From positions 55,699-119,698 of the forward strand of contig JAKVOO010000001.1 of NCBI GenBank assembly GCA_022482735.1: a DNA stretch of 64,000 nucleotides. Reading direction: 5' to 3'. Source of the stretch: Bacilli bacterium. GTDB lineage: Bacteria; Bacillota_I; Bacilli_A; RFN20; CAG-826. The notes beneath the pieces were generated by a model that was given only the letters and a program-made list of their open reading frames with translations, was not told where the DNA came from and made no database searches. Below are positions 4,614 to 63,077 of the stretch, in pieces (the first letter of the stretch is position 1; every line of letters begins with the position of its first letter). A program made the position numbers and the translations under genes.

Positions 4614-6185
4614 ATGAATTACGATGTCATAGTTATAGGGGGAGGCCTTTCAGGTCTTACGGCTGCGGCATATCTCTGCAAATATGGTTTATCGACTTTA
4701 TTAGTGGAAAAATCCGCTAAAGTCGGTGGCTTGGCGAACAGTTTTAATTATGAAGGCTATACTTTTGATTATGGTATTAGAGCTTTCGAAAATTCCGGTA
4801 TCATCTTACCGATGATTAAGTCTCTAGGATTAGATATTAGTTTTGCTAAAAGTCCAGTATCCGTTGGAATTGATGATCAATGGAAACTATTAGATAAAAA
4901 ATCCTCAATTATTGATTATTCTATGATGCTCAAGCACTTTTTTAATAAGAATGAACGCGATATCGATTTAATTGTTGTTGAAATTAAAAAAGTAATGGCG
5001 CAGATGGATGTCATATATGGAATCGATAATCCTTTGTTCCTCGAAAAAATAACCGACAAGAAGTATATTTTTAAAACACTTTTGCCCTGGTTAATTAAAT
5101 ACCAAAAGAATATTCGGGCGGCAAGCAAGCTAAATGAGCCAATCAACGAATATCTATTAAAGTTTACAAATAACCATTCGTTAATTGATATGATAACGCA
5201 GCATTTTTTTACTTCGACTCCATCTTTTTTTGCTTTAAGCTATTTTAGCCTTTACATTGATTACATCTATCCTCTAGGAGGAACTGGCGTATTAGCCAAA
5301 AAGGTCAAAGAATATATTATTAGCCACGGAGGCGAAATTCTGCTTAATAGTGAAGCGGTAAATATTGACATAGAAAAACATACTGTATCCTTAATAAATA
5401 ACAATGTAATTTCGTATCGTAAATTAATATGGGCTGGGGATCAAAGAAGTTTATATAACCGAGTTACATCGCTTAATGAAGCCCAGCGTAAAGTCAAAAA
5501 TATTTGCAATAGTAGCCGTGGAGGCAATTCAGTCTTAACCTTATTTATCGGAGCGGATATAAATCCCGAGAAATTTGCAAAAAAGTGTGGGCAGCACGCC
5601 TTTTATACAGCAGACTTATCCGGCCTTTCTTCGATTAAAAATATTGATTTAGCAAAAGTCAAAAATGATGAAGAGGTTTTTGCATGGGTTAGAGAGTACC
5701 TCAAGAAAACCACATACGAGATTTCAATTCCTGTCTTAAAAGACTCTAGCCTTGCGCCATCTAGCAAAACTGGTTTGATTGTCAGTACAGTTTTTGATTA
5801 TGACATTACCGATTATTTCTCTAAGAATAATAAGTACCAGGATTTTAAAGATTTTTGCATGAAAGAAATGATTTCTTTGCTTGATGAAAAATTGCTAAAC
5901 GGATTGAAAGATAAAATCGATTTCTCGATGGTCGCCACACCATTAACAATTGAAAAAGAAACCGGTAACTTTGAAGGGGCGATTACGGGATGGTCCTTTG
6001 CTAATAAAGTCATGCCATCCGAAAATCGCTTCCAAAAGATTAAAAACGCAATTAAGACACCACTAAAAGACATTTATCAATGCGGAGCATGGACTTTTAG
6101 TCCATCCGGGTTACCGGTATCAATTTTAACGGGTAAACTGGCCGCGGATGATGCTAAGAAACACTTAAGGAGCAAAAAGAAATGA
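4614..6185 (+). CDS. FAD-dependent oxidoreductase, phytoene-desaturase (CrtI/CrtP-like) family
   Basis: N-terminal dinucleotide-binding motif YDVIVIGGGLSGLTAAAYL. The C-terminal GAITGWSF...CGAWTFSPSGLPVSILTG resembles the CrtP/CrtN family C-terminus. The gene lies in an operon with crtQ/crtO-like genes. Confidence 0.75.
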   Translation: MNYDVIVIGGGLSGLTAAAYLCKYGLSTLLVEKSAKVGGLANSFNYEGYTFDYGIRAFENSGIILPMIKSLGLDISFAKSPVSVGIDDQWKLLDKKSSIIDYSMMLKHFFNKNERDIDLIVVEIKKVMAQMDVIYGIDNPLFLEKITDKKYIFKTLLPWLIKYQKNIRAASKLNEPINEYLLKFTNNHSLIDMITQHFFTSTPSFFALSYFSLYIDYIYPLGGTGVLAKKVKEYIISHGGEILLNSEAVNIDIEKHTVSLINNNVISYRKLIWAGDQRSLYNRVTSLNEAQRKVKNICNSSRGGNSVLTLFIGADINPEKFAKKCGQHAFYTADLSGLSSIKNIDLAKVKNDEEVFAWVREYLKKTTYEISIPVLKDSSLAPSSKTGLIVSTVFDYDITDYFSKNNKYQDFKDFCMKEMISLLDEKLLNGLKDKIDFSMVATPLTIEKETGNFEGAITGWSFANKVMPSENRFQKIKNAIKTPLKDIYQCGAWTFSPSGLPVSILTGKLAADDAKKHLRSKKK

Positions 6186-7288
6186 TAAAGCCAATGGTTG
6201 AACTATCAATTTCCGTTATTGGCCTGTTGCTTTGTTTTATTCTTTTTCATCATTTCCCCCGTCTATCCAAAACTAGAAAGAAAGTAGATATCGCCCCATC
6301 GGTTTCGGTGATTATTCCCGCGCGAAATGAAGGCCGAAATATCGCTAATTTACTGAATGATTTAAGAAAGCAATCTTTGCCTCCTCTGGAAATAATCGTA
6401 GTGGATGACATGTCTAGTGATGACACCCTAAAGATAGCAAAAAGCTTTGCGGTTAAAGTAATTAAGATTGAAGAAAAACCAGATGACTGGCTCGGCAAAT
6501 CGTGGGCATGTCAAAAAGGGGCGGATGCTGCAAAGGGAGATTTCCTTCTTTTTCTTGATGCGGATGTTAGGCTCTCTGGTAACGCTCTGTTTAGATTAAT
6601 TAAAACCCGAATGGAAGTTTGCACGACCATATCGGTTCAGCCCTATCACCAAACCAAGAAACTCTATGAGCAGTTCTCAATGATTTTTAATATCGTTCAA
6701 ACGGCCGCTGATGGGGTCTCTCTTCCTTGGAAGAAAACCACGGGATTATTTGGGCCAGTAATTCTAATATCTAAGAATGATTACTTCAGTATTGGAGGGC
6801 ATCAGAGCGTTAAGAACTCAATTATTGAAGATATTGCTTTAGGCAAGGCTCTTGATAAAGCGGGATTAAAATATAATTTATATGTTAGTGAGGGCGATAT
6901 CTCCTATCAAATGTATGGGGATGGCTTTAAAAGTCTATTTAACGGTTGGACTAAAAATATCGCTTCTGGTGCCAGTAGCATGTCTTTTGTTAATTTTTTG
7001 CTGGTTTTCTTATTTATAGCCTCCTTAATTTCGGTCCCGTCTAATGTTGTATTATACGCAATTAATTTTGATTTATTATGGCTGCTTCTATATTGTGGCC
7101 TGTATCTATTTTGGGTGATCGTACTGTTTTTTATAAGCCACAAGATTGGGAGATTTAATCCTTTAGCAATCATTCTATTTCCAATTTTGGTTTTATTCTT
7201 TACTCTAGTTTTTATTGTTTCGTTTTTTATTAAAATTTTTAATTTAAAATATAAATGGAAAGGTCGCTCAATAAGCGGAAAAAGATAA
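6182..7288 (+). CDS. crtQ: family-2 glycosyltransferase, 4,4'-diaponeurosporenoate glycosyltransferase-like
   Basis: Blocks VIIPARNEG, VVDDMSSDDT, LDADV, SVQPYHQTKKLYEQFSMIFN, FGPVILISKNDYFSIGGH, IIEDIALG, NGWTKN and the C-terminal KWKGRSIS match my recollection of S. aureus CrtQ. ATGA overlap with the upstream gene. Confidence 0.75.
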   Translation: MIKPMVELSISVIGLLLCFILFHHFPRLSKTRKKVDIAPSVSVIIPARNEGRNIANLLNDLRKQSLPPLEIIVVDDMSSDDTLKIAKSFAVKVIKIEEKPDDWLGKSWACQKGADAAKGDFLLFLDADVRLSGNALFRLIKTRMEVCTTISVQPYHQTKKLYEQFSMIFNIVQTAADGVSLPWKKTTGLFGPVILISKNDYFSIGGHQSVKNSIIEDIALGKALDKAGLKYNLYVSEGDISYQMYGDGFKSLFNGWTKNIASGASSMSFVNFLLVFLFIASLISVPSNVVLYAINFDLLWLLLYCGLYLFWVIVLFFISHKIGRFNPLAIILFPILVLFFTLVFIVSFFIKIFNLKYKWKGRSISGKR

Positions 7289-7290
7289 AT

Positions 7291-7779
7291 ATGCAAATTG
7301 TATTTTTGTCTCCTCTATGGATGATTATCTTGTTTTTCACTCTTTGGCCCGTGCTACAAATTTCATGTGCGCTTATTGCTCTAGCAATTCCTAATCGAGC
7401 GTATGACCCGGACTCATTTTTTTACCGTTCGCACCGGTTTGAATTAGAAGGTAAACTTTATGAGCGTTTATTTGCTGTAAAAAAATGGAAGCATTTGCTA
7501 CCAGACGGTGGGGCGGTATTTAAAAAGCGCGGATACAAAAAGAAGAAGTTGGAGAGTTTTTCAAAAGAAAATTTGGAACTATTTCTTGTCGAATCGGCGC
7601 GGGGCGAATTGACCCATTGGCTGGCTATTTTTCCATTTTGGATTTTTGGCTTTTTCGCGCCTCCCTACATTATTTTAATTATGCTTGCCTATGCTTTAAT
7701 CGTTAACCTTCCTTGTATTATCGTTCAACGATACAATCGGCCAAGAATCAAAAAGATTTTAAAAATGATGAATAAATAA
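7291..7779 (+). CDS. crtO: glycosyl-4,4'-diaponeurosporenoate acyltransferase-like membrane protein
   Basis: Motifs VKKWKHLLPDG, ELTHWLAI and IIVQRYNRPRI match recalled S. aureus CrtO. ATG at 7291 lies 3 nt after the crtQ stop. Confidence 0.75.
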   Translation: MQIVFLSPLWMIILFFTLWPVLQISCALIALAIPNRAYDPDSFFYRSHRFELEGKLYERLFAVKKWKHLLPDGGAVFKKRGYKKKKLESFSKENLELFLVESARGELTHWLAIFPFWIFGFFAPPYIILIMLAYALIVNLPCIIVQRYNRPRIKKILKMMNK

Positions 7780-27314: not shown

Positions 27315-27375
<61 letters not shown>

Positions 27376-27390
<15 letters not shown>

Positions 27391-27450
27391 TCTAAACCTA
27401 GGAACCATCGAAGAAATTCGGTGGTTTTCTTTTTTCCAAAAACATAAAAA
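27376..27450 (+). repeat. attL-like direct repeat (last 15 nt of tRNA-Phe plus about 60 nt including the tRNA terminator hairpin)
   Basis: Near-identical to 34560-34636. Weaker similarity continues to 27553 / 34736. Confidence 0.85.
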
Positions 27451-27493
27451 AGGCGATTTTGGGCTAAATCGCCAAATGTCCGTGTGTCGGTTT

Positions 27494-27553
27494 TTATTTA
27501 ACTTTTTTCATAAACTTGTCATATCGCTTCCTTGATTCAATCAAATAAACATG
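27494..27553 (-). pseudogene. tyrosine integrase remnant (last 19 codons only)
   Basis: The reverse strand reads HVYLIESRKRYDKFMKKVK*. The C-terminus of the intact integrase at 34677..35519 reads HIDLIETRRRYDKFIHKKK*. Confidence 0.75.
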
Positions 27554-27644
27554 AATAATTATCTTTGCCGCATAAACTGAAGGATGATTAGATATCTATA
27601 TAGTTATCAAACAAAGAATCATACATCACTGCCCATATTTTGTT

Positions 27645-27826
27645 GTTCTTAATATTTGCTTGGTGATATACTTAAAATAATACTAAGGCACACTCAAATA
27701 ATTTAGTGCTTTGAAACATAACGGGGGTTATGAGCAATGAAAAAATCAAAAGCTAAAACGATTGGACCGAAATCAGTTTTAGTTGCGACTAAAGGAGAAG
27801 TCGTTTTAACTTCCTTTGGCCAAAAG
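27645..27826 (+). repeat. duplicate of the cas13d promoter / 5' UTR / first ~30 codons
   Basis: Aligns with 31229-31419, from atattttgttgttcttaatatttgcttgg... through ...acttcctttggc. The encoded peptide is MKKSKAKTIGPKSVLVATKGEVVLTSFGQK, versus MKKSKAKAVGLKSVLVTTKGEVLVTSFGKK in cas13d. Confidence 0.9.
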
Positions 27827-28459
27827 AGTATTAAGTCAGTGGCCCTGGCCTTGGAGACCGCATCAGAAATCATCTTGGCTGCGCTATCTATGGTTTTGAT
27901 TGTTGCTTTTGCTTTCAAGCCGATGCTTTCTTCGAAAAGAGTATTTTTTTCGACAACATCCAGCGGCTCGCCGTCCTTGGCAGTATCGGAAGCTATTGAA
28001 TATTCCTCTTCTGGTGAAAACGCTGCCTCTACGGTGGACGTGATGGTTGCCAACTTATATTACGGAACCAATTACGACGGAACGGTCGGGAAACTGAACC
28101 CCGGATACGATTTTCGGGCAATTACAATCTCCCTAGAGGAGTTGAACGGAAACGAAATTCTTCTTTCGTATCCAGTCGCCATCAATGAATACGGGAAAAT
28201 GGAGAACGGCATCCTTCGCGAGAATGTCCACAAAGTCATTAGGGATGATTATTCCCTAATCTATTCCTTTGACCTAAATGAAATTTTCCAAAACGACTAC
28301 GATGGGGTTATTTCCTTCGCCGTGAAATACGAGGAATCACGCTCGGATGTCATTTATTCGTTTGGGAAACGATTCTATTTTGATTTTTCGAAGGTTGGGG
28401 ATGTTGCAAAACTATCTGATTTTAAATGGGATTATTTCAGCGATGGCTACGCTGACTGA
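27737..28459 (+). CDS. chimeric ORF: cas13d N-terminal 30 codons fused to unrelated sequence (240 aa)
   Basis: The start and RBS are inherited from the duplicated cas13d 5' end. The remainder has no Cas13d similarity. The middle part (about 27835-28050) has an equally open antisense frame, so it is uncertain whether this ORF codes for anything. Confidence 0.4.
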   Translation: MKKSKAKTIGPKSVLVATKGEVVLTSFGQKSIKSVALALETASEIILAALSMVLIVAFAFKPMLSSKRVFFSTTSSGSPSLAVSEAIEYSSSGENAASTVDVMVANLYYGTNYDGTVGKLNPGYDFRAITISLEELNGNEILLSYPVAINEYGKMENGILRENVHKVIRDDYSLIYSFDLNEIFQNDYDGVISFAVKYEESRSDVIYSFGKRFYFDFSKVGDVAKLSDFKWDYFSDGYAD

Positions 28460-28475
28460 TTAGGAGGATTCACCT

Positions 28476-30980
28476 ATGAATATGAGCCTTGCCATAATTC
28501 TTACCATTTAGGCAGTTAGCGCCCGTATTGCTGGCTCCGACTTACAGCCATCAATTATAGCCGATATGCAAGACAATTCGGTATTGCGAAGCGTCACATC
28601 ATCTCAGGTGTCAGTTGCTTTTTTAGACGATTCGGTATCCTCTGGTAGCACAATTTCCGCTACTTTAGCACCTGCTACCCCAAGTGTTTCTCTTTCAATT
28701 CTAAATGCATCTCCTAATCTTGCGGTTTCACTGATAAACAATAACGACGGAACTTATACCACATTGTTGAACACGCCAGGAATTGCGGGGGAGTACATCG
28801 TTTCGCTCTTTTAAGAAAATGCCCCATCCATAGATGGTAATCCCGACGAAATTAGTTCCATCTATATCTATTCCGACGGCAACAACGACTGTGCTTCTTG
28901 CGTGTCAATGGATGAAGCGCATGGAAAGTATTATATGAATTATGTGGCATCGGAGACCGATAAGGTTTTGCTTGGAAAAGAAGAACAGACTGATGGTTTC
29001 ACATCGACGAAGACTCGATATGCAGCTGAGCAGGACTATGCCAATGCCACTTACGATGGGGGCGATATTGAAACTCAATGGAGCGTTTCATCAGCAAATA
29101 ATTCTGGAAAAGTAAAGGTGACGGGGAATGCCACTTGGTACGACGAGAACGAAGTCTCTCATCCATTGGTCGGAGTTAAGGCAATTTTGTGGGACGATGA
29201 TATTTTTTGGAATGAATATTGCGGATCTACATATACGGACAGCGACGGCTATTTTTCATTTGAAATAAGCAACCAAATATTTTTTGAATTAGGAGGAAGA
29301 GACCTTTTTGTGGCTCTTTATTCGGAAACTGACGCCGTTTTGGTAGAAAGTTTTTGGTGGGGAGAATACATCATGATGACGCCGCTTTTCACGAATGTTT
29401 TTAGCAATTCGCAAATCGAATTTGACATTGCAATCCACCCAGGAGTAAGCGATCGCGCGAATGCTTTTGAAATCACTCAAGCGGAGAACATACCTCACAA
29501 ATACATAAAGGATATGGATAATACCGATCTTCCTATGGTTCCTATCTTTTATCCAGCATTTGATGGGGAAGGATGCTATTATAACAACGTCTTAGATTAT
29601 CTTGCTATCGGATGGAAATTCTATCGGGATTGGGATTGCTTAAATCACGAATATGGTCATTTTATCAATGATCAATTGGACTTGTGCGACGACAGTGTTG
29701 GTGGTGACCATTACGTAGGCGAGGATCTGGTCAGCAGCAAAGGAAAGACCAACGGATTGAAGATGGCCATGTCTGAGGGATTGGCGAGTTATTTGGGGAC
29801 TGCCGCACAGATGTACTGTGGAACGGATCTTGGAGTGCCTAGGGTAGGAGATGAAATATACCATGCAGTGAATGGTGTTAACGAAAATTATGGCTTATAT
29901 CGATATGGTCAAGGTTTTGGTGTTGGCGGAGAGGGAAACGAATTTAGCGTCACCAGTTTGCTAATCAAACTTTTAGACGGAGAAATTCGTGCTAATGATT
30001 CAGTCGCCCTTGGGCATTCTGCAATGTGGAGTGCAATCAAATCATCAAATCATTGGTGCATTTCATCCCTTATTTCGACGATTATCTCTGCGCACGAAGA
30101 ACAAAGGAGTGCAATAGGGTTGATTCTCGAAAATGAGGGATTTGCGCCTATTCCCAGTGGCTCAGGCAATACATCTTTAGTTACCAACTCGAACAACCCA
30201 TGCTGGACTTTCTCTTGGGACGTGAACGGGTTTGATTCGGTTGATCCGGATTTGTTTGATTTGGTTTTTGAGGGATTAGACAATAGCACATTCACATTAG
30301 GTGGACTTACTACCACGAGTGTTTCCCTGACAGCGACTCAGGCTAATTCAGTCCTTGATTTGCCGGGTGATCTGGTTAGATGGCACGTTGTTGGATACAA
30401 TAGCGGCAGCCCAACTACTGGAGAATATTCAAGTTCTGATTTGGTTTCTAATGGTCCCTCGTCTTCAACTTTGATTAAGGATGTGTCCAAAGCATCTAAT
30501 CTGTCGGAAGGGGAAATTGAATGGTTCAGATTTACGGCACCTTATGCGAGTACTTTCTATTTCGAGAGTAGTGGTGGCATTGATATGTATGGGGAAATTT
30601 TCCCCGACTTCGTGGCCGACGGCACGCTATCTGGCAGGCTCGCTTATAACGATGATGGGGGCGTGGGACTTAATTACAAAATAGCCATCTCTCTCACCTC
30701 AGGTCAAACTGTGTATCTGAGATCAAGGGCTTATAATGCTTCCGCATCGGACAGTTATTCTATATTGGTAACCTCCGACCATGTTCATGATTATTCCGAC
30801 CATTATGATCAATATAGCTCTACTCAGCACAAATCGTGCTGTAGTTGCGGTGCCTATGTACTCCAGCCTCATATCTCCAATGGAATTGTGACCTGGGTTG
30901 GTATGCACAAATACACCAACTGCGCCCTGTGCGGTCAGCTCATTGATCTCAATACGACTCCTATTATCGTCGGTCCATAA
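28476..30980 (+). pseudogene. secreted HExxH zinc-metalloprotease-like protein with a C-terminal pre-peptidase (PPC)-like domain, two in-frame stops
   Basis: SD aggagg (28463-28468) precedes ATG 28476. In-frame TAG at 28509-28511 and TAA at 28812-28814, with the frame otherwise open to 30980. HEYGH motif, and a PPC-like block EGEIEWFRFTAP...YGEIF...LAYNDDGG. Confidence 0.6.
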
Positions 30981-31109
30981 GTTTTTATCGGAACAAGTAA
31001 CAACGGTGAGACTCGTTTAATATTAAGTTTTTAAGTTTCTTGTTATATCATCTAGAGAGGATTTTCGACTTAAGCATCTATTCTCAAAGCACTTAGGATA
31101 ATTTGGATT

Positions 31110-31129
31110 AGGACCTAGGGTCCTTTTTT
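31110..31129 (+). terminator. rho-independent terminator separating island cargo from cas13d
   Basis: Hairpin aggacc-tag-ggtcct followed by tttttt. Confidence 0.65.
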
Positions 31130-31249
31130 ACTTTTCTAAAGTGTCAGTTGTCTAACTCATTTGGTAATGGAAAAGACCGGATACTTGGCAAAAATTCGTG
31201 AAGTGCTGGCATATAAATAAAATAATCTATATTTTGTTGTTCTTAATAT

Positions 31250-31279
31250 TTGCTTGGGGTATATTTAAATTAATATTAA
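31250..31279 (+). promoter_or_regulatory. candidate cas13d promoter
   Basis: TTGCTT, about 18 nt spacer, TATTAA, inside the duplicated segment. A G-rich SD (ggggg) lies 8 nt before ATG 31330. Confidence 0.35.
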
Positions 31280-31329
31280 TGGACACTCAAATAATTTAGT
31301 TCTTTGAAACATAATGGGGGTTATAAGCA

Positions 31330-33987
31330 ATGAAAAAATCAAAAGCTAAAGCGGTTGGACTGAAATCAGTTTTAGTTACGACTAAAGGCGAAGTACTTGT
31401 TACTTCCTTTGGCAAAAAGGCGGAAGCCACGATTGAAAAGAAAATAATAAACAATAAGTTGGATAAAGAACATGACCCACCGACTTTTAGTCTTAATGTT
31501 GATAATTACGATTATAGATTAAAAAATAATACTGGAACTTTTTCGGCAGAAGTTGAAAATCCATTTCCTAGAAAGGAAAGCAATCGAAAAATTAGATGGA
31601 AGAATTGGCAAGAAGGGAAAAAGGAAAAGGGAGAGATTCCAACCATAAAAAGAACGATTGGAGATGATCAAATTTTTGCTAAAGCGGAGTTGGAAACAGA
31701 GTTTTTTGGCAAGCGGTATGAGGATAACATTCACATCCAAATTATTTACAATATATTGGATATTAGAAAAATACTTTCCCCCTACATCAATGATATTATT
31801 TATTCTATAAATAATTTAAATCGTGATTTAAATGTTGATGATGAAAAATCGGATATTTTTACGATTCGTTTTAGTGAAAATTATGAAAAGGCCAGCGATA
31901 GGATAAAGAATCTATTTGAAAAGTTTTATATTAATATTTCAAAAAATGGATACTATTCTAGTGCTTTTTATCATCAAGAAGGCGATAAATTTAAGTTTAA
32001 AAGTAAAATTGAGATATTTGATATTTTTAGACTATTAAGTGCGATTAGACAAGATGCCATGCATAGCTCAATAAGAAATAAAAATTGTGAATATAATGTT
32101 TTTTTTGATGAGAAAATGCTTCCTAATGATTTAAAAATTGTTCTTGATGGGTTATATTCACAAAAAGTTTATGAAACGAATAAAAGTTTTATCGAGTTAA
32201 ATAAGAGAGCAAACTTTTCTATTTTAGATAGCCTCTATTCTGATGAAAAAAACAAAGAAGCACTCTATCGCTTATTTTATGACTTTAATGTAAGGCAAGA
32301 GAATCTTAACTTAGGTTTTTCTATAAAGCGAATTCGCGAATGTTTACTTACACTAACCGATTATTCTGAGATAAAAAACAAGGACTTTGATAGCGAAAGA
32401 AGCAAATTGTATCATTTTTTTGATTTTGCTCTATATAAATACTATCTTAGCAACAATAAAATAGTTGATACTTTTGTAGAAAAGCTTCGCCAAAACATGA
32501 CCGATGAAGGAAAAGACAAACTCTACATTGAGCAAGCAAATGAAGTGGCTAATATTTTACATGATAAAGTTATTGATAGGCTTTTGCCGATGATGAATGG
32601 AGATGTAATAAAAAAATTAAATAGTGACTCGTTGAATACTAAAATTTCTGATCAAATAATTAATAGAATTAGAATAAATGATTCGGTTTCTTACTTTACT
32701 AAGTTGCTCTATTTTATGACTTTGTTTTTAGACGACAAAGAGACCAATGATATGCTTGCTAACATCACTAATAAGTTTGATAACATTATGTCCTTTATGC
32801 AGGTTTACAAGAATAAGGATAATGAATTTTTAGATGATGGCCTAAGCGATTTGCAAAATATGTATAAGGGACACAAACTAAATAATGGCAATCAGCAGAT
32901 TGTTTTCAGAGGTAAATATGCGCTTTTTAATAAAAATAATGAAATTGCCGATGAATTACGTATTTTGAAGTCAATTTCACGTTTTAAGCCGGCAGCAAAG
33001 ATAAGCCGTCAAATGATTCTTGATGCTGCTTATCTATTAGGATATAAGGAAGATGAGAACAGCGATCAAGTACTCACGAAGAAACTGAAGTTAGATGATG
33101 ATGGGAGTAAGGGGGCTAGAAATTTCTTAATCAATAATGTTGTTAAATCTAGACGATTTATCTATATCGCTCGGCATGTAAATCCTCGGAAAATTTGTGT
33201 AGTAGCGCAAAATGAACATGTGGTTAGGCTGGTACTAGAAAGACTTCCTCTTGAGCAGTTAACGCGTTACTATCAGGCGATTACTGGACTAGATTTAAAA
33301 GCACCACCTAAAATGATTGATAAACTGGTTCAAGAAATAAAATCAGTTAATCTAGAATCTTTTATCGATATCGACAATAAGGCATTATCTAGAGATAAGC
33401 AAATTATTAAAGAGCAAAAAAAGACCATAATCGGTTTATATTTAACAGTATTGTATCTTGTCTACAAGAATCTTGTTAATGTAAATTCGCGGTATGCAAT
33501 TGCCGTTTATACCCTAGAACGAGACTATGATATTAAATTTCCTAACGAAGAATTTGATTTTAAAAAACTAAATAATCAGTTGAAACTTTCAAATCTATTC
33601 ATTGAAAAAGGATATTTAAAAAAGAGACAAAGAGAAATATTGCAAAAAAATATAAGCGAATTAAGTAATGGAAGATTTTTTTCCTTATATAGGAATCAAA
33701 TCGCTCATTTGAACGCGATTAGGAATTTAGATAAATACATATCTAATGTTAAAGACATTAAAACATATTTTGGTTTATATCACTTTATCAGTCAGGCATT
33801 ACTTTGTGCTAAAATAGTAGAGTATTGCAAAGGCGACAATTCATTTCTTTTAAATCAAATTAAAGAATCTCAAAGAAGAGGTAAGTACTCAAAAAATGCT
33901 TTACACATTATTCATGTTCCCTTTGGATACAATCAAGCAAGATACAAGAATTTAAGTATTGAAGTCTTGTTTGATAAAAACAAATAA
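31330..33987 (+). CDS. cas13d: type VI-D CRISPR effector Cas13d (RNA-guided RNase, two HEPN domains), 885 aa
   Basis: Two R-x4-H HEPN motifs: RQDAMH (residues 240-245, nt 32047-32064) and RNQIAH (residues 788-793, nt 33691-33708). Blocks match my recollection of RfxCas13d/EsCas13d:
- N-terminal KSKAKAVGLKSVLV;
- IHIQIIYNILDIRKIL;
- NLGFSIKRIRE;
- FTKLLYFMTLFLDDKETNDMLANITNKFDNIMSF;
- ADELRILKS;
- ARNFLINNVVKSRRF;
- IIGLYLTVLYLVYKNLVNVNSRY;
- YFGLYHFISQ;
- VPFGYNQARYKNLSIEVLFDKN.
The gene is directly followed by a CRISPR array. Confidence 0.93.
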   Translation: MKKSKAKAVGLKSVLVTTKGEVLVTSFGKKAEATIEKKIINNKLDKEHDPPTFSLNVDNYDYRLKNNTGTFSAEVENPFPRKESNRKIRWKNWQEGKKEKGEIPTIKRTIGDDQIFAKAELETEFFGKRYEDNIHIQIIYNILDIRKILSPYINDIIYSINNLNRDLNVDDEKSDIFTIRFSENYEKASDRIKNLFEKFYINISKNGYYSSAFYHQEGDKFKFKSKIEIFDIFRLLSAIRQDAMHSSIRNKNCEYNVFFDEKMLPNDLKIVLDGLYSQKVYETNKSFIELNKRANFSILDSLYSDEKNKEALYRLFYDFNVRQENLNLGFSIKRIRECLLTLTDYSEIKNKDFDSERSKLYHFFDFALYKYYLSNNKIVDTFVEKLRQNMTDEGKDKLYIEQANEVANILHDKVIDRLLPMMNGDVIKKLNSDSLNTKISDQIINRIRINDSVSYFTKLLYFMTLFLDDKETNDMLANITNKFDNIMSFMQVYKNKDNEFLDDGLSDLQNMYKGHKLNNGNQQIVFRGKYALFNKNNEIADELRILKSISRFKPAAKISRQMILDAAYLLGYKEDENSDQVLTKKLKLDDDGSKGARNFLINNVVKSRRFIYIARHVNPRKICVVAQNEHVVRLVLERLPLEQLTRYYQAITGLDLKAPPKMIDKLVQEIKSVNLESFIDIDNKALSRDKQIIKEQKKTIIGLYLTVLYLVYKNLVNVNSRYAIAVYTLERDYDIKFPNEEFDFKKLNNQLKLSNLFIEKGYLKKRQREILQKNISELSNGRFFSLYRNQIAHLNAIRNLDKYISNVKDIKTYFGLYHFISQALLCAKIVEYCKGDNSFLLNQIKESQRRGKYSKNALHIIHVPFGYNQARYKNLSIEVLFDKNK

Positions 33988-33999
33988 CCTCATTTTGAG

Positions 34000-34299
34000 G
34001 TGCAACACCTGTGTAAAATTACATAGGTCTAAAACTGTAGACCATATTTTTTGTCAATGGCTTTGGTGCAACACCTGTGTAAAATTACATAGGTCTAAAA
34101 CGGCATTAGTTACTTCACTAGGAATATCGATGTGCAACACCTGTGTAAAATTACATAGGTCTAAAACTGGGCGATTAGTTTTTCGATTTTGCTTTCAGTG
34201 CAACACCTGTGTAAAATTACATAGGTCTAAAACTTGTGCATTTTTTATTTTTACAGAACTTGCGTGCAACACCTGTGTAAAATTACATAGGTCTAAAAC
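34000..34299 (+). CRISPR. CRISPR array: 5 identical 36-nt repeats and 4 unique 30-nt spacers (plus a possible 5th spacer and degenerate repeat at 34300-34364)
   Basis: The repeat GTGCAACACCTGTGTAAAATTACATAGGTCTAAAAC occurs at 34000, 34066, 34132, 34198 and 34264. It has an internal 7-bp hairpin (ACCTGTG/CATAGGT) and a 3' GGTCTAAAAC, like the recalled Cas13d repeat GAACTACACCCGTGCAAAAATGCAGGGGTCTAAAAC. Confidence 0.95.
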
Positions 34300-34559
34300 T
34301 CCGTACATAGAGCCACCAGTATGTATTAGAAAGAGTTTTGTTGAATGATTTATAGGTGTTAGTCAAATTTGTATGCAAAAAAATCAGCATAGTTTGTCAT
34401 GCTGAAATAAAAACTTAAATTATAAGTACTAGGCGACTAAATTTAGTTCTTTCAATAGAGTTAAATTATTTATTGCCTTTAACTAATTTTTCACCAAGAA
34501 AATGATGACAAATTAAGCCGAAAGTTAAACTATCTTTAAAAAATAGTTCGTCTAAGAAT

Positions 34560-34636
34560 CGGCTTGGGCCACCATCTAAACCTAGGAACCATCGAAGAAA
34601 TTCGGTGGTTTTCTTTTTTTCTAAAGCATAAAAAAA
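34560..34636 (+). repeat. attR-like direct repeat (partial tRNA-Phe 3' end plus downstream sequence)
   Basis: cggcttgggccaccatctaaacctaggaaccatcgaagaaattcggtggttttctttttt is identical to 27376-27435, and the similarity continues beyond it. Confidence 0.85.
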
Positions 34637-34676: not shown

Positions 34677-35519
34677 TTATTTCTTCTTATGAATAAATTT
34701 ATCGTATCTTCTTCTTGTTTCAATTAAATCTATATGAACATATCGCTTTGTGGTTTCAACCGATGTATGGCCAAGAACACGAGAGATCATAATTAAATCA
34801 GCTCCATTAGAATAAAGATTTGTTGTAAGCGTATGCCTAAGCATATGAGGAGATAATTTTTCGATTTTAAAACGCTTTCTCATTCGACCAAATATACATT
34901 CAACATTATTAACTGTTAACTGTTTTCCACTAGGTGTGCTAAACAAGAACTTATTCATTTTCTTTTGCTTTTTAACATACTGCTTTAACAAACGTGAAGT
35001 TCCAACTGTGTAATAAACATATCGCTCATGTTTTGTCTTTGTATGAACTAAGTAAACATATCTTTCATCAAAATTAATATCTTCTATTCGTATGTTTATT
35101 ACTTCACTTAACCTTGCTCCAGTGTCAACAAAAATCATAATTAGAACTTTGCTTCGCAAAGTTATTTTTGGAAATACATTACTAAACAATTCAGTTTGTT
35201 GCTTCTGATCTAAATAACCAAATGTTACAAAAGGAATACGCATATTCCTTATATTCTCAACACCAGGATGAACATCACTAAAACGACATGCTCTTTTAAT
35301 AAATCCTACTCGATGATTTAAAGTATTAGGACTAATACCACGTTCCCGTTCGGAAAATATATAATTGGTAACAAATTCTTTTGTTAAAGCACTAGAATCA
35401 ATGTTACCAAAAGTATTAATCAAGGTCTTTTTAATTGATAAATAGAACTTATATGTTCCGGGAGAATTATATAGTTTTTGTTCAATCAAATATAAATCAA
35501 ACAATTTATTAAGTTTCAT
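34677..35519 (-). CDS. int: tyrosine recombinase / phage-type integrase (280 aa)
   Basis: Catalytic signature ARLSEV (Arg), HMLRHT (His-x-x-Arg) and LGHTSVETTKRYVH (His...Tyr). The gene lies next to the partial tRNA-Phe repeat. Confidence 0.85.
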   Translation of the reverse strand: MKLNKLFDLYLIEQKLYNSPGTYKFYLSIKKTLINTFGNIDSSALTKEFVTNYIFSERERGISPNTLNHRVGFIKRACRFSDVHPGVENIRNMRIPFVTFGYLDQKQQTELFSNVFPKITLRSKVLIMIFVDTGARLSEVINIRIEDINFDERYVYLVHTKTKHERYVYYTVGTSRLLKQYVKKQKKMNKFLFSTPSGKQLTVNNVECIFGRMRKRFKIEKLSPHMLRHTLTTNLYSNGADLIMISRVLGHTSVETTKRYVHIDLIETRRRYDKFIHKKK

Positions 35520-35632: not shown

Positions 35633-35713
35633 CAAATGGAAGCTATGTCATTAACATATGCTTTCGCTCATCCCGTAAGGGAAGGGTGCCCGGGTACTTA
35701 CCGGGCTTTTTTT
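35633..35713 (+). ncRNA. candidate small RNA (about 80 nt) with its own promoter and terminator
   Basis: TTGACA (35598-35603), 17-nt spacer, TAAAAT (35621-35626). The terminator is gcccgg-gtactta-ccgggc plus T7 (35688-35713). Divergent from int. Confidence 0.4.
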
Positions 35714-35767
35714 AACATATTTGTCCCCTTTCTTGACAAATTTTTAAATATTTGATTTAATATAGGC

Positions 35768-35898
35768 GACCCCGGATAGTAATATCTTGTGCGGTCTGAA
35801 GCTAGCTTCGCGCTAGATTAGAGCTAGCCTGTGTGCTAGAGAGGCTTCAGTCTTAATTGGCTGCGGAATGAGCTAACCCGTCAAAGTGGCTCTTTTTT
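35768..35898 (+). ncRNA. candidate structured RNA (about 130 nt), class not recognised
   Basis: TTGACA (35733-35738), 17-nt spacer, TTTAAT. An outer stem gtctgaagc/gcttcagtc (35794-35802 / 35844-35852) encloses two hairpins with the same ctagc/gctag stems. The segment is G+C-rich relative to its surroundings and ends in a T-run at about 35893-35898. Confidence 0.35.
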
Positions 35899-36927
35899 AT
35901 TTCCATCGCGATTTTCGCGCCTTATAGTATTCTTTTAAATCATCGGGATGAAGTTTTTTTTACTTTGTTTACTGCATCTAATGGATGTTCTCCTGCTTTA
36001 AATCGATTACTTGTCAATTTAATTTTAGCAATGGTTTACGTATAAATATAGCTACCTTGCTATCTATTCGGATAAGTCTTGGTTAAAGGAACACTTTGCT
36101 TATTAGCTATTTGTTTGCTGGTTGCTTTTCTAATAATTTCAGAGATTTGAGCATACTGAGGGGCAGTTTTAACAACCGCCACTGGCCGACTATTACTAGC
36201 TTTTACTCCTTTCGTCCTAACATAGTTTGGCCAGTTCTTTGACAGCACACTTATACAGAGTTTTATAGGCCCAACCAGATGGATTATTCAAAATTGCAAT
36301 AAAAAATAAGATGTATTTAATAGATTTTTATGTGAAAAATAATTGTTGAAAATGTTGGTTCATAGGTTTTTTTAAATTAATTTTATGGCAAAAAAAACTT
36401 ATGCGAGAAAATTGAAATCATTGAATTTATAAAAATATTTTTTTATAGAACAAGTTCTGACATATCACTGCCATCATTAAATTGTTATGAAGTTTTGAAT
36501 CAAAGTGAGCATTAAAATATAGGATAAAAAATATTTTTAAACGGCACTACATTAAGCAATATATTGAATAATAGCTTAAATTAATTTGAGTATATTTATT
36601 ACATTCTCATTAAGTTTTTGATAGAAAATTATAAATAGAATAAATACAGTTTTATAGTCATCGATTAAAAAGATTAGCATGAATCTTAAAACGCCCAGTT
36701 TTAATTAAGCATATTTTTGTGGATTAGCACAAATAATCTATAAAAAGAAGCACTAAATAAAATATTTTTTTAGTTCTTTTCTATAATAATAAAACATATA
36801 TTAGCAGCAAATATAGCTTTGGTATTTGCTTTTGAATTTTAACTTATTCAAAAACATTTCTCTACTTTAATGTCTATTAGCGTGATAGAATATCGCTATC
36901 AAAGTTTTGATCTTTGATTAGTGCTCT

Positions 36928-37027
36928 TCATGAGTAGAAATGATGCGTCAAGTATCGTCAGATGGGAGGTTGCTGACGAGCGAAAGAAATCTTTGATTTC
37001 TGCGGTATCATTTCGCCATCCGCATGG
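36928..37027 (+). promoter_or_regulatory. THF (tetrahydrofolate) riboswitch aptamer
   Basis: TCATGAGTAGAAATGATGCGTCAAG...GATGGGAGGTTGCTGACGAGCGAAAG...TGCGGTATCATTTCGCCATCCGCATGG follows the recalled folT-motif consensus (GAGUAG-AUGAU-GCG...UGGGA...ACGA-GCGA...GCGGU-AUCAU...AUCCGC). The P1 stem is tcatg/catgg. Downstream, cctccc (37052-37057) can sequester the SD gagagg (37071-37076). Confidence 0.75.
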
Positions 37028-37083
37028 ACTAATTTAGTTTTGAGCATTAAACCTCCCCTGATACAAGAATGAGAGGTATTATC

Positions 37084-37629
37084 ATGGGGAAATCAAAAAT
37101 TATTCACCGCATCACCCTTGATGCTATGCTAGCCGCCCTTTATGTTGTCCTTGCTTATGTTACCATACCTATAGGCAATATTCGTCTTACAATTGCTTCG
37201 CTACCCGTAGCCCTTGCCTGCCTTGCTTTGGGTATTGGAGATGGGGTATCCGTGGCATTTCTTGGCGAGTTTATTAATCAGCTATTGAAGTATGGATTTA
37301 CTTTAACAACTCCGATTTGGCTGATTCCACCGATAATTAGGGCGCTTGTCATCGGATTGTTTGCTCATTTTTATCGTAAACAAGGTCAAAGACTCGAAAA
37401 TCACTATGTAATTTATTTCGTGGCTTTCATAGTTGCCGCTATTGTTACAACCGGAGCAAATACTTTAGCGTTATATCTTGACGCATTAGTATTTGATTAT
37501 CCGTTTGCCTTTGTGCTGTATGAGACGATTATTCGGTTTTTGACGGGTATTTTGACCGCAGTTTTGCTGGCCATTATCGCGCAACCATTATCAAGAATAA
37601 TTAGAAATTACACCTTTAGTCCTTCTTAG
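37084..37629 (+). CDS. folT: ECF transporter S component, folate family
   Basis: A roughly 180-aa 6-TM protein directly downstream of a THF riboswitch. ATG 37084 lies 7 nt after the SD. Confidence 0.7.
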   Translation: MGKSKIIHRITLDAMLAALYVVLAYVTIPIGNIRLTIASLPVALACLALGIGDGVSVAFLGEFINQLLKYGFTLTTPIWLIPPIIRALVIGLFAHFYRKQGQRLENHYVIYFVAFIVAAIVTTGANTLALYLDALVFDYPFAFVLYETIIRFLTGILTAVLLAIIAQPLSRIIRNYTFSPS

Positions 37630-61719: not shown

Positions 61720-62235
61720 TTAAAGCCAAATAATTAAAATCGTTGTTATTAGAAAAAATAGCACCATTGGGATCATTAGAACGATGGATATCTTTAACAT
61801 TAAATGTTTAAATGAACAAATTCTTGCATTTTGATTGATCTGTTCAATACTTATTCCACAGTCACCATTATCTTTGAATATTATTATGTATTCATCACTT
61901 GTAATATCTTTTAAATCTTTATAATATGTCAGCGACTTGTGATCTGGACTTCCTTTTCTATTTTTAGGCAATAAAACTAAAACAGAAAAAGTCAATGCCG
62001 CTATAATTGAGACTAAAAAAACTAAAAATGAACTAAATATATATGGCTTAATCTGATCCGATTTACTTGAAATAACATCAATAACTGTAAATGATAGTGC
62101 AAATACAATACCAAGTATCGATACAATAATTGATGCTTTATTATCAAAGGAAGCAATTTGATTCAAAATAAGTTCTAATGACAATCCCTTTTGTTCTTTT
62201 AAACTTTCACTATTCACATTCATTTTTCCATCCAC
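61720..62235 (-). CDS. pycTM: Pycsar effector, transmembrane type (PycTM-like)
   Basis: Small protein with an N-terminal LILNQIASFDNKASIIVSILG block (the F-D/A-x-K-A motif of the Pycsar effector family as I recall it) and 3 TM helices. It lies directly downstream of a class III cyclase gene. The probable true start is ATG 62223, after the SD gaggtg. Confidence 0.7.
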   Translation of the reverse strand: MDGKMNVNSESLKEQKGLSLELILNQIASFDNKASIIVSILGIVFALSFTVIDVISSKSDQIKPYIFSSFLVFLVSIIAALTFSVLVLLPKNRKGSPDHKSLTYYKDLKDITSDEYIIIFKDNGDCGISIEQINQNARICSFKHLMLKISIVLMIPMVLFFLITTILIIWL

Positions 62236-62303
62236 CTCTCTTTAAAATTGCTCGATTATTTTATTTTACGTTCTTTTACCTAACCAAATTGTTATCCTTA
62301 TTC

Positions 62304-63077
62304 TTATTGGTCTGGCATACCATCATCAATCCACTTATCAAATTTTGTTTTTATGACATTACCATGATAAAACTCAACTTCTGTGGTGTCATATCCTCTT
62401 GAATCTTTTTCATATTCACTTTCAAACCATGTGGGAAAGTCTTTATAATTTTTCGTTTCTTGCTCTACTATATTTGTATAAACCGATGGGTCAATGGCAA
62501 TTGAACCAATTCCATTTCTGGAGGCTATATTAGATAAATTTGAAGCATTTACTACAGCTTTCCCAATAAAAACCAAATCATTGATAACGCCTTTTTTTCC
62601 AACTTTAATAACCAAATCTTTTGATAATCCAATGCCAATACCATAATCAATTTGTGGCATATTATTTTGTCTCAACACTTTATTAATCATTTTCTTGAGT
62701 GTGTTAATCTCAACAGCCATATTATATGCTTCCGCAACATTTTCCTTATTAGGAGATGCAAAAATAGCAAACACACAATCTCCTCTCACACCAATTCTTT
62801 TATACATTTGTGTGTCGTTCAAAATCTGAATTGTCTCAGATGAAAAAGTTCTTATGACCTTAGCAATAGTTTTATCATTTTTCCCTTTAAACAATTCAGT
62901 AGAATTTACTAAATCTACAAATATTGAAACAACCCAACCCTTAATTCCATTATTAAATGTTAAACTCCCATTAGTTTCACTTTCGATATCCGATATGCTG
63001 GTCTTATCTGCAACCTCAGTACTGGAGTTAATGATGTTGTAAATAACGTCCTTTCTTTGCTTGTAGTCGTATGCCAT
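62304..63077 (-). CDS. pycC: class III nucleotide cyclase, Pycsar cyclase-like (PycC)
   Basis: Cyclase-homology motifs: VVSIFVDLVNSTEL (first metal-binding Asp), RGDCVFAIF (second Asp), GIGIGLSKDLVIKVG and FIGKAVVNASNLSN. SD aaggtgg precedes ATG 63077. The gene pairs with a TM effector. Confidence 0.75.
   Translation of the reverse strand: MAYDYKQRKDVIYNIINSSTEVADKTSISDIESETNGSLTFNNGIKGWVVSIFVDLVNSTELFKGKNDKTIAKVIRTFSSETIQILNDTQMYKRIGVRGDCVFAIFASPNKENVAEAYNMAVEINTLKKMINKVLRQNNMPQIDYGIGIGLSKDLVIKVGKKGVINDLVFIGKAVVNASNLSNIASRNGIGSIAIDPSVYTNIVEQETKNYKDFPTWFESEYEKDSRGYDTTEVEFYHGNVIKTKFDKWIDDGMPDQ

What the first reader, a model, noticed from the sequence alone, without database searches (positions are those of the whole stretch)
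31330..34365. Compact type VI-D (Cas13d) CRISPR-Cas locus with no adaptation or accessory genes
A single 885-aa protein carries two widely separated R-x4-H HEPN motifs: RQDAMH at residues 240-245 and RNQIAH at residues 788-793. Numerous blocks match what I recall of Cas13d effectors (RfxCas13d, EsCas13d), from the N-terminal KSxAKxxGxKSxLV to the C-terminal VPFGYxxxRxKNLSIExLFD.

A 36-nt-repeat, 30-nt-spacer array follows immediately. Its repeat ends in GGTCTAAAAC and has the internal hairpin typical of type VI-D repeats.

I see no cas1, cas2 or WYL-domain gene anywhere in the 64-kb window. At 885 aa the protein sits at the small end of the family as I remember it. I predict a single-protein RNA-guided RNase with crRNA self-processing and probable collateral RNase activity.
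Basis: partly seen in the sequence, partly recalled or inferred. Interest (0 to 1): 0.9.

Follow-up and report, generated by a model that had tools for sequence, protein, structure and literature searches.

The report
Cas13d RNA-targeting CRISPR locus, confirmed
This is a genuine but ordinary type VI-D (Cas13d) CRISPR locus, an RNA-guided RNA-cutting defence enzyme with its guide array, that public databases already label as Cas13d; its only unusual side is that it sits in a tRNA-Phe integration hotspot and changes spacers between strains with no adaptation genes nearby.

Summary
ORF 31330-33987 (+) encodes an 885-aa protein with RQDAMH (residues 240-245) and RNQIAH (788-793). Twelve nt downstream lie five exact 36-nt repeats with four 30-nt spacers (34000-34299).

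The protein matches NCBIfam's Cas13d equivalog end to end (E 2e-193, 645 bits, cut-off 150) and PADLOC Cas13d (E 2e-203). It also matches solved UrCas13d, EsCas13d, DjCas13d and CasRx by sequence. An AlphaFold model (pLDDT 82) hits only Cas13d structures (TM 0.62-0.79).

No cas1, cas2 or WYL gene is found in the 64 kb. That is the commoner state of VI-D loci (19% with cas1/cas2 in Yan 2018; 23 of 77 loci here).

The exact protein is already in NCBI nr, and 94-98% identical copies are named Cas13d [Bacilli bacterium]. Every other relative is at most about 42% identical.

Side findings:
- The nearest other lineage carries cas13d-cas1-cas2.
- Conspecific strains share the gene-array junction but no spacers. 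cas13d is under purifying selection (dN/dS 0.22-0.34).
- The locus lies between perfect 60-bp repeats of the tRNA-Phe 3' end, next to an integrase.
- One sister-strain spacer matches the adjacent integrated element.

The implied sixth repeat (to 34365) is not supported.

The parts
31206..31329 (+). cas13d upstream region with a weak sigma-70-like site (31206-31233). It follows a terminator-like hairpin at 31110-31124 that ends the upstream gene.
   Evidence: The region from 31229 onwards is duplicated at 27635-27826.
31330..33987 (+). cas13d, 885 aa, type VI-D effector
32047..32064 (+). HEPN-1 catalytic motif RQDAMH (R240...H245)
   Evidence: It aligns to the EsCas13d RHWCVH motif.
33691..33708 (+). 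HEPN-2 catalytic motif RNQIAH (R788...H793)
   Evidence: both residues invariant. It aligns to the EsCas13d RNTVCH motif.
34000..34299 (+). CRISPR array: 5 exact 36-nt repeats and 4 spacers of 30 nt, on the same strand as cas13d
34300..34559 (+). Array trailer, conserved between strains. Its last 53 nt (34507-34559) recur at the right end of other integrated elements in sister strains. No sixth repeat is demonstrable.
27315..27390 (+). tRNA-Phe gene. Its last 15 nt begin the left att-like repeat.
27376..27435 (+). Left copy of a perfect 60-nt direct repeat (att-like)
   Evidence: 2 matches in the window, 0 expected
34560..34619 (+). Right copy of the perfect 60-nt direct repeat (att-like), 260 nt after the array
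27497..27589 (-). Remnant of the last 31 codons of a tyrosine integrase gene
   Evidence: 52% identity to the C-terminus of the intact integrase, E 1.6e-4
27635..27826 (+). 90%-identical duplicate of the cas13d upstream region plus its first 30 codons. It forms the start of a chimeric 240-aa ORF (27737-28459).
34677..35519 (-). Intact tyrosine recombinase (phage-integrase family), directly outside the right repeat
   Evidence: PF00589, E 3e-36; phrog_1 integrase, E 6e-47
35839..35868 (+). Protospacer-like site in the element remnant next to the integrase. It matches spacer 6 of sister strain L001: 22 of 23 nt here, and 23 of 23 nt exact in strain L003.

Best explanation
This is a functional, minimal type VI-D CRISPR-Cas interference module. 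cas13d and the co-oriented array are transcribed in the same direction; co-transcription is inferred from the 12-nt gap between them. Cas13d itself cuts the pre-crRNA into guides made of a roughly 30-nt 5' repeat handle plus spacer. Pairing of a guide with a complementary transcript of a phage or other mobile element brings the two HEPN motifs (R240/H245 and R788/H793) into an active RNase site. That site cleaves the target and, collaterally, other RNAs. Family membership, the catalytic motifs, the fold, the repeat type, purifying selection and spacer variation between strains are shown here. Processing, target-activated cleavage and collateral activity are inferred from characterised Cas13d enzymes. 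New spacers must come from adaptation proteins encoded elsewhere or from array exchange, because the locus has none.
For: - Profile and sequence matches: NCBIfam Cas13d equivalog, E 2e-193, 645 bits against a cut-off of 150, covering 2-884 of 885 aa. PADLOC Cas13d, E 2e-203. PDB sequence matches to UrCas13d, EsCas13d, DjCas13d and CasRx, E 3e-110 to 7e-79.
- Fold: AlphaFold model with pLDDT 81.9 and pTM 0.84. Its top 20 Foldseek hits are all Cas13d (TM 0.62-0.79); the next hit, Cas13a, has TM 0.25.
- Catalytic residues: the HEPN residues are conserved.
- Repeat: 36 nt with a hairpin. It is 29/36 identical to the repeats of two other Cas13d loci and shares the ...GGTCTAAAAC 3' end, on the same strand as the gene.
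- Selection: the ORF is intact in five other loci, representing three distinct conspecific sequences, with dN/dS of 0.22-0.34.
- Spacer variation: the spacer sets of the window, L001 and L003 are entirely different, although the gene-array junction is identical and cas13d is 95.6-98.5% identical.
- A target: spacer 6 of L001 has an exact 23-nt match to the integrated element beside the locus in L003 and a 22/23 match in the window.
- Published biochemistry: self-processing (a 5' repeat truncated by 6 nt), target and collateral cleavage, and no flanking-sequence requirement were shown for EsCas13d and RspCas13d (PMC5935466).
Against: - There is no experimental evidence for this ortholog. Its repeat sequence appears in no searchable paper.
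- None of the 18 spacers matches a GenBank phage. Five spacer- or element-derived patterns have no exact match in IMG/VR.
- The array is short, with four spacers.
- No adaptation or WYL accessory gene lies within 64 kb.
- The promoter assignment is weak: the count of consensus-like sites is no higher than in shuffled sequence.
Confidence: 0.92

Rival explanations
1. The cas13d-array module is cargo of, or a decayed derivative of, a site-specific integrative element that targets the 3' end of tRNA-Phe. On this reading it serves mainly in conflicts between competing mobile elements at that site. This is not exclusive of the best explanation, because the enzyme would work the same way.
For: - Perfect 60-nt direct repeats, starting with the last 15 nt of tRNA-Phe, bracket 27376-34619.
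- An integrase remnant lies beside the left repeat, and an intact integrase lies just outside the right repeat.
- The 53 nt before the right repeat recur at the right end of other elements stacked at the same site in L001 and L003.
- cas13d has 30% GC against 38-43% in the flanks.
- In L001 the module sits between att copies in a different arrangement, next to an element with a phage-type DNA methyltransferase.
- A sister-strain spacer matches the neighbouring element.
Against: - No excision or circular form has been seen.
- The integrase inside the bracketed segment is a 31-codon remnant.
- The segment is a mosaic; the upstream 834-aa-type gene has 43% GC.
- L001 is a metagenome-assembled genome, and the repeats could have caused misassembly.
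- Only one spacer has a convincing match.
- tRNA genes are general hotspots, so the locus may be a passenger of neighbouring insertions.
Confidence: 0.3
2. The locus is a decaying, frozen relic. After losing cas1-cas2 it can no longer adapt and is no longer used.
For: - The nearest other lineage (P0002, P0003) has cas13d-cas1-cas2, whereas here the array abuts the stop codon.
- No cas1/cas2 is found in 64 kb.
- Only four spacers are present.
- The gene just upstream carries two nonsense codons in this strain.
Against: - The ORF is intact in all loci, with dN/dS of 0.22-0.34.
- All five repeats are identical.
- Spacer content is completely different between strains whose cas13d is 98.5% identical, so turnover continued after the shared junction arose.
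- Type VI loci without cas1/cas2 are known to borrow adaptation machinery from co-resident systems (10.1101/2020.02.20.957498 and 10.1101/2024.10.25.620265).
Confidence: 0.06
3. The protein is not a Cas13d but another two-HEPN protein, either a different Cas13 subtype or a toxin, that happens to lie next to repeats.
For: Pfam has no model that hits it. R-x4-H motifs alone are common; a third, non-catalytic one occurs at residues 357-362.
Against: End-to-end equivalog match far above the cut-off. Cas13a scores only 1e-12 over one HEPN stretch. The fold matches only Cas13d. The repeat belongs to the VI-D family.
Confidence: 0.01

Closest known systems
Characterised Cas13d effectors: EsCas13d (6e9e), UrCas13d (6iv8), RfxCas13d/CasRx (9m31, 9lzt), DjCas13d (9m30)
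   Same: Full-length collinear alignment, both HEPN motifs and the same fold (TM 0.62-0.79). All have a 36-nt repeat with an internal hairpin and a ...CTAAAAC or ...GAAAC 3' end on the gene's strand.
   Different: Only 25-31% identical over the structural alignments. The window protein is shorter (885 aa) than the 954-, 930- and 967-aa deposited chains and close to DjCas13d (877 aa). Relatives of this protein are labelled Bacilli bacterium, whereas most Cas13d loci come from Ruminococcus, Eubacterium or Oscillospiraceae. It has not been tested experimentally.
Conspecific proteins annotated by NCBI as 'type VI-D CRISPR-associated RNA-guided ribonuclease Cas13d [Bacilli bacterium]' (HMM00821.1, MCH4236080.1)
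   Same: 94-98% identical, the same 885 aa, and the same repeat and gene-array junction.
   Different: Different spacers. In one assembly (L001) the surrounding arrangement differs.
Nearest other Cas13d lineage (P0002, P0003; metagenome contigs L083-L085)
   Same: Sister branch in a neighbour-joining tree, 38-41% identical, with a VI-D-type repeat.
   Different: In that lineage cas1 and cas2 follow cas13d directly, with the array after them. Here both are absent and the array starts 12 nt after the stop codon.
Type VI systems that adapt with borrowed Cas1-Cas2: Flavobacterium VI-B with II-C, and Listeria seeligeri VI-A
   Same: The locus lacks cas1/cas2, yet spacer content varies between strains.
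   Different: A different subtype. No co-resident CRISPR-Cas system can be seen in the 64-kb window, so trans-adaptation is only an inference here.

Membership tests
Cas13d / type VI-D CRISPR-Cas | Sequence membership: a full-length match to a curated Cas13d profile above its cut-off | tested here: met
   NF038189 equivalog, 645 bits against a cut-off of 150, E 2e-193, residues 2-884 on profile positions 1-882. PADLOC Cas13d, E 2e-203.
Cas13d / type VI-D CRISPR-Cas | Two HEPN domains with R-x4-H catalytic motifs at the family's conserved positions | tested here: met
   RQDAMH 240-245 and RNQIAH 788-793. R788 and H793 are invariant and R240 and H245 are at least 90% conserved in 24 Cas13d sequences. 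They align with the EsCas13d motifs.
Cas13d / type VI-D CRISPR-Cas | Cas13d fold | tested here: met
   Model with pLDDT 81.9 and pTM 0.84. The top 20 PDB matches are all Cas13d, TM 0.62-0.79, E 1e-42 to 4e-28. Cas13a follows at E 3.5e-3 with TM 0.25.
Cas13d / type VI-D CRISPR-Cas | Adjacent, co-oriented CRISPR array with a 36-nt hairpin repeat of the VI-D type and spacers of about 30 nt | tested here: met
   Five exact repeats 12 nt after the gene. Hairpin z = -3.85. 29/36 identity to the repeats of L075 and L063, and 17 of 21 full-length (35-37 nt) repeats recovered from other Cas13d loci share the ...AAAC end.
Cas13d / type VI-D CRISPR-Cas | Compact size (median 928 aa) | tested here: met
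   885 aa. Relatives range from 847 to 1049 aa at full coverage. The median of 928 aa is from PMC5935466.
Cas13d / type VI-D CRISPR-Cas | Autonomous pre-crRNA processing, and crRNA-guided target and collateral ssRNA cleavage | not testable with these tools
   Shown for EsCas13d and RspCas13d (PMC5935466). Inferred here from homology and conserved catalytic residues.
Cas13d / type VI-D CRISPR-Cas | WYL-domain accessory gene (frequent but optional) | tested here: not met
   No WYL (PF13280) hit in about 61 window ORFs. This is not a defining feature. The count of WYL genes in other loci was not made.
Cas13d / type VI-D CRISPR-Cas | cas1-cas2 adaptation module (optional; present in a minority of loci) | tested here: not met
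   No Pfam Cas1 or Cas2 hit, and no tblastn hit with Cas1/Cas2 of the nearest relatives. Only 19% of loci have them nearby in PMC5935466, and 23 of 77 loci here.
tRNA-targeting integrative element (genomic island) | Direct repeats that duplicate the tRNA 3' end and flank the segment | tested here: met
   A perfect 60-nt repeat at 27376-27435 and 34560-34619, beginning with the last 15 nt of tRNA-Phe. Two matches in the window against 0 expected.
tRNA-targeting integrative element (genomic island) | A functional integrase within the flanked segment, and evidence of mobility (empty site or excision) | tested here: inconclusive
   Inside the segment there is only a 31-codon integrase remnant. The intact integrase lies just outside the right repeat. 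Sister strains show other elements stacked at the same att, but no empty site or excised form was seen.

The most novel reading that the evidence does not exclude
The cas13d-array unit is a minimal, att-flanked passenger of a family of tRNA-Phe integrative elements. It can be moved by an integrase supplied in trans, renews its spacers with adaptation proteins encoded elsewhere, and is aimed largely at rival elements that compete for the same attachment site.
Probability: 0.25. Interest if true: 0.5.

Novelty: already known. Interest (0 to 1): 0.22.

Why it matters
Cas13d enzymes are valued as small programmable RNA-targeting tools, and shorter orthologs are sought because they fit viral delivery vectors. 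At 885 aa this one is about as small as DjCas13d. It is at most about 42% identical to any relative outside its own species, so it is a reasonable candidate for a screening panel.

Biologically, the locus gives a clean natural case of a VI-D system that lost cas1-cas2 while its sister lineage keeps them, yet still shows complete spacer turnover between close strains. That makes trans-adaptation of type VI-D testable if the organism or its genome can be examined. None of this changes the understanding of the family.

Tried and rejected
- Sixth, degenerate repeat at 34330-34365: rejected. Its alignment score equals the shuffle mean. This also removes my early idea of a conserved terminal spacer; that sequence is simply trailer.
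- Natural targets: 18 spacers from three strains against 50,697 GenBank phage records gave no match at E <= 1. Three spacer patterns, one protospacer pattern and one element pattern gave no exact match in IMG/VR. A protein of the L001 element has no relative in IMG/VR.
- Repeat core in the JGI metagenome collection: no match.
- Weak spacer matches (window spacer 2 against L001 6662-6691, 24/30; window spacer 4 against L001 170-199, 23/30) are about what chance gives in AT-rich DNA. I do not count them.
- The 100%-conserved stretch beside the protospacer (35770-35845) as a structured RNA: folding z-scores of 0.4-0.7 and no Rfam match.
- The upstream 240-aa and 834-aa-type genes as Cas13d accessories: no Pfam or PADLOC hit, and neither lies next to cas13d in L001.
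- The window's own species is not in the species-representative genome collection, so its name could not be read there. An exact look-up of the window protein's contig also returned nothing.
- The L001 element could not be classified: only a DNA methyltransferase and a weak transcriptional-activator hit in PHROGs.
Full report
**Observation**

The window holds an ATG-started ORF at 31330-33987 (+) of 885 aa. It contains RQDAMH at residues 240-245 and RNQIAH at 788-793, exactly as reported, plus a third R-x4-H (RSKLYH, 357-362) that is not a HEPN site. Twelve nucleotides after the stop codon come five identical 36-nt repeats, GTGCAACACCTGTGTAAAATTACATAGGTCTAAAAC. They start at 34000, 34066, 34132, 34198 and 34264 and are separated by four 30-nt spacers.

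The repeat folds into a 9-bp hairpin with a 4-nt loop (-10.6 kcal/mol, z = -3.85).

Aligned to the repeat, that stretch scores no better than shuffled sequence. I therefore end the array at 34299 and treat 34300-34559 as trailer. The trailer is conserved in sister strains.

**Identity of the protein**

Pfam has no model for it. NCBIfam's curated equivalog NF038189 (VI_Cas13d) matches residues 2-884 over the whole 882-position profile at E 2e-193. The score is 645 bits against a cut-off of 150. PADLOC's Cas13d models give E 2e-203, while Cas13a reaches only 1e-12 over one HEPN stretch.

A sequence search of the PDB finds only Cas13d chains: UrCas13d 6iv8 (E 3e-110), EsCas13d 6e9e (9e-104), DjCas13d 9m30 (2e-98) and RfxCas13d/CasRx (7e-79). 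The alignments are collinear and end to end. They place RQDAMH on the EsCas13d RHWCVH motif and RNQIAH on its RNTVCH motif.

In an alignment of 24 family members, R788 and H793 are invariant and R240 and H245 are at least 90% conserved.

An AlphaFold2 model built on that alignment has mean pLDDT 81.9 and pTM 0.84. Its 20 best matches among solved structures are all Cas13d (TM 0.62-0.79, E 1e-42 to 4e-28). The next match is a Cas13a at E 3.5e-3 and TM 0.25. Membership of Cas13d is as secure as computation can make it.

**Repeat type**

I fetched 77 Cas13d loci from species-representative genomes and extracted their arrays. Their repeats are typically 36 nt and lie on the strand of cas13d. They have a G+C-rich hairpin in the middle and end in ...GTCTAAAAC or ...GTCTGAAAC. 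The window's repeat is 29/36 identical to those of L075 and L063. Its orientation fits a crRNA with a 5' repeat handle, as reported for EsCas13d: a mature crRNA with the 5' repeat truncated by 6 nt (PMC5935466).

**Neighbourhood**

About 61 ORFs covering the 64 kb were scanned against Pfam. They are ordinary chromosomal genes:
- transporters, enolase and pyruvate formate-lyase with its activase;
- a rubrerythrin, carotenoid-type enzymes and three tRNAs.

None has a Cas1, Cas2 or WYL domain. tblastn with Cas1 and Cas2 taken from the closest other Cas13d loci finds nothing in the window or in the sister-strain loci.

This absence is not unusual. Yan et al. found cas1/cas2 near only 19% of Cas13d genes (PMC5935466). 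In my 77 loci, 23 have a Cas1 homologue within the fetched flank.

**How known it is**

The exact protein is already in NCBI nr and JGI/IMG, on a 1.48-Mb contig. Members of its 90% cluster carry the NCBI name 'type VI-D CRISPR-associated RNA-guided ribonuclease Cas13d [Bacilli bacterium]' (HMM00821.1, MCH4236080.1).

Outside that cluster the best full-length relatives are 38-42% identical. An exhaustive search of 1.84 billion cluster representatives finds 306 proteins at E <= 1e-30, so the family is large. A neighbour-joining tree puts the window protein on a long branch, sister to P0002 and P0003.

The repeat sequence occurs in no searchable paper, so I found no sign that this ortholog has been characterised. 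Only 3 of about 57 full-length relatives are shorter than 885 aa. DjCas13d, at 877 aa, is described as unusually small.

**Comparison of strains**

Loci L001 to L005 carry the same gene at 95.6-99.6% DNA identity.
- dN/dS is 0.22-0.34, so the gene is under purifying selection.
- The 12-nt junction between the stop codon and the first repeat is identical in all of them.
- The spacer sets differ completely: 4 spacers in the window (the same 4 in L005), 9 in L001 and 5 in L003, with none shared.
- The sister lineage P0002/P0003 has cas1 and cas2 directly after cas13d, with the array behind them.

The simplest reading is that this lineage lost cas1-cas2 once and kept exchanging spacers afterwards. 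That requires either adaptation proteins encoded elsewhere in the genome or recombination between arrays. Borrowed adaptation is documented for type VI-B and VI-A (10.1101/2020.02.20.957498 and 10.1101/2024.10.25.620265). It is an inference here, because the rest of the genome is not available.

**Genomic setting**

A perfect 60-nt direct repeat occurs at 27376-27435 and 34560-34619. It begins with the last 15 nt of tRNA-Phe (27315-27390). There are only these two copies in the window, against none expected by chance.
- Beside the left copy lies the remnant of the last 31 codons of an integrase gene (27497-27589, minus strand).
- Just outside the right copy lies an intact tyrosine integrase (34677-35519, minus strand).
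- Next comes a fragment (35706-36236) homologous to part of an integrated element seen in L001.
- The 53 nt before the right repeat recur before att copies at the ends of other elements in L001 and L003, where extra elements are stacked at the same site.
- cas13d has about 30% G+C against 38-43% in the flanks.

These are the marks of a tRNA integration hotspot with tandem insertions, and the cas13d-array unit lies inside one att-bracketed segment. Whether the unit itself moves is not shown. L001 is a metagenome-assembled genome, and the repeats could have misled its assembly.

**Oddities inside the segment**

The 100 nt upstream of cas13d plus its first 30 codons are duplicated at 27635-27826 (90% identity). 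There they form the start of a 240-aa ORF, which continues into an unrelated sequence with a predicted membrane helix. The gene between the two copies encodes an 834-aa protein in L003. In the window it carries two nonsense codons: TAG at 28509 and TAA at 28812.

**Targets**

Spacer 6 of L001 has an exact 23-nt match in L003 (8888-8910) and a 22/23 match in the window (35846-35868). The site lies in the element fragment next to the integrase. L001's own copy of that element is unrelated over exactly this stretch. The orientation means the crRNA would pair with transcripts made in the direction of the integrase and the element's genes.

No other spacer has a convincing match. Nothing was found in GenBank phages, IMG/VR or the metagenome collection.

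**Mechanism**

Shown here:
- a Cas13d-family protein with intact catalytic motifs and the Cas13d fold;
- a VI-D array in the right orientation;
- purifying selection;
- spacer turnover, and one spacer directed at a neighbouring mobile element.

Inferred from characterised family members:
- self-processing of the pre-crRNA;
- activation of the composite HEPN site by guide-target pairing;
- cleavage of target and bystander RNA, with no requirement for a flanking sequence.

Inferred from context: co-transcription of gene and array, basal activity without WYL1 stimulation, and spacer supply in trans.

**Verdict**

However, this is a family member that public annotation already names. Its lack of adaptation and accessory genes is the commoner state for the subtype. 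The att-flanked setting and the spacer turnover without local cas1/cas2 are modest leads rather than surprises.

Noticed in passing
window 61720-63077 (-): A two-gene Pycsar anti-phage system: the cyclase PycC (62304-63077; PADLOC E 5e-70) followed by the PycTM membrane effector (61720-62235; E 6e-19, Pfam PF18967).
   Followed up: partly
window 27635-28459 (+): A chimeric 240-aa ORF. Its promoter region and first 30 codons are a 90% copy of the start of cas13d (MKKSKAKTIGPKSVLVATKGEVVLTSFGQKS). The rest is unrelated and has a hydrophobic helix. The ORF is 99% conserved in L001. Its origin and function are unexplained.
   Followed up: partly
window 28476-30980 (+): The gene just upstream of cas13d is intact in strain L003 (834 aa, no family hit; it contains an HEYGH motif). 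In the window it has two C-to-A nonsense changes: TAG at 28509 and TAA at 28812. It is probably a pseudogene or an N-terminally truncated product.
   Followed up: yes
window 27376-27435 and 34560-34619; 34677-35519 (-); 35706-36236: tRNA-Phe integration hotspot: perfect 60-nt att-like repeats, one integrase remnant, one intact integrase, and a fragment of an element that is longer in L001. That fragment includes a truncated 62-aa ORF at 36060-36248.
   Followed up: partly
L001 1-9560: A mobile-element-like gene block of at least 9.5 kb upstream of cas13d in the sister assembly. It has a phage-type DNA methyltransferase, several membrane proteins and a 738-aa protein with a P-loop motif. It has no relative in IMG/VR and almost no PHROG hits.
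   Followed up: partly
window 34264-34329 (+): Cas13d crRNAs carry the repeat at the 5' end, so the last repeat plus the conserved trailer (TCCGTACATAGAGCCACCAGTATGTATTAG) could yield an invariant extra crRNA. That guide matches nothing else in the window or the sister loci.
   Followed up: partly
window 36928-37027 (+): A THF (tetrahydrofolate) riboswitch (Rfam RF01831, 65 bits) in front of an ECF-transporter S component at 37069-37629, presumably a folate transporter.
   Followed up: no
window 4614-7779 (+): Three adjacent genes resembling the late steps of staphyloxanthin-type carotenoid synthesis: an amine-oxidase/desaturase-type flavoprotein, a family-2 glycosyltransferase and a CrtO-type acyltransferase. 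This is unexpected in a genome of about 1.5 Mb.
   Followed up: no
window 33987-34001 (+): A 5-bp hairpin (ACCTC ATTTT GAGGT) spans the cas13d stop codon and the first two bases of repeat 1. It is identical in all strains. Its significance is unknown.
   Followed up: no
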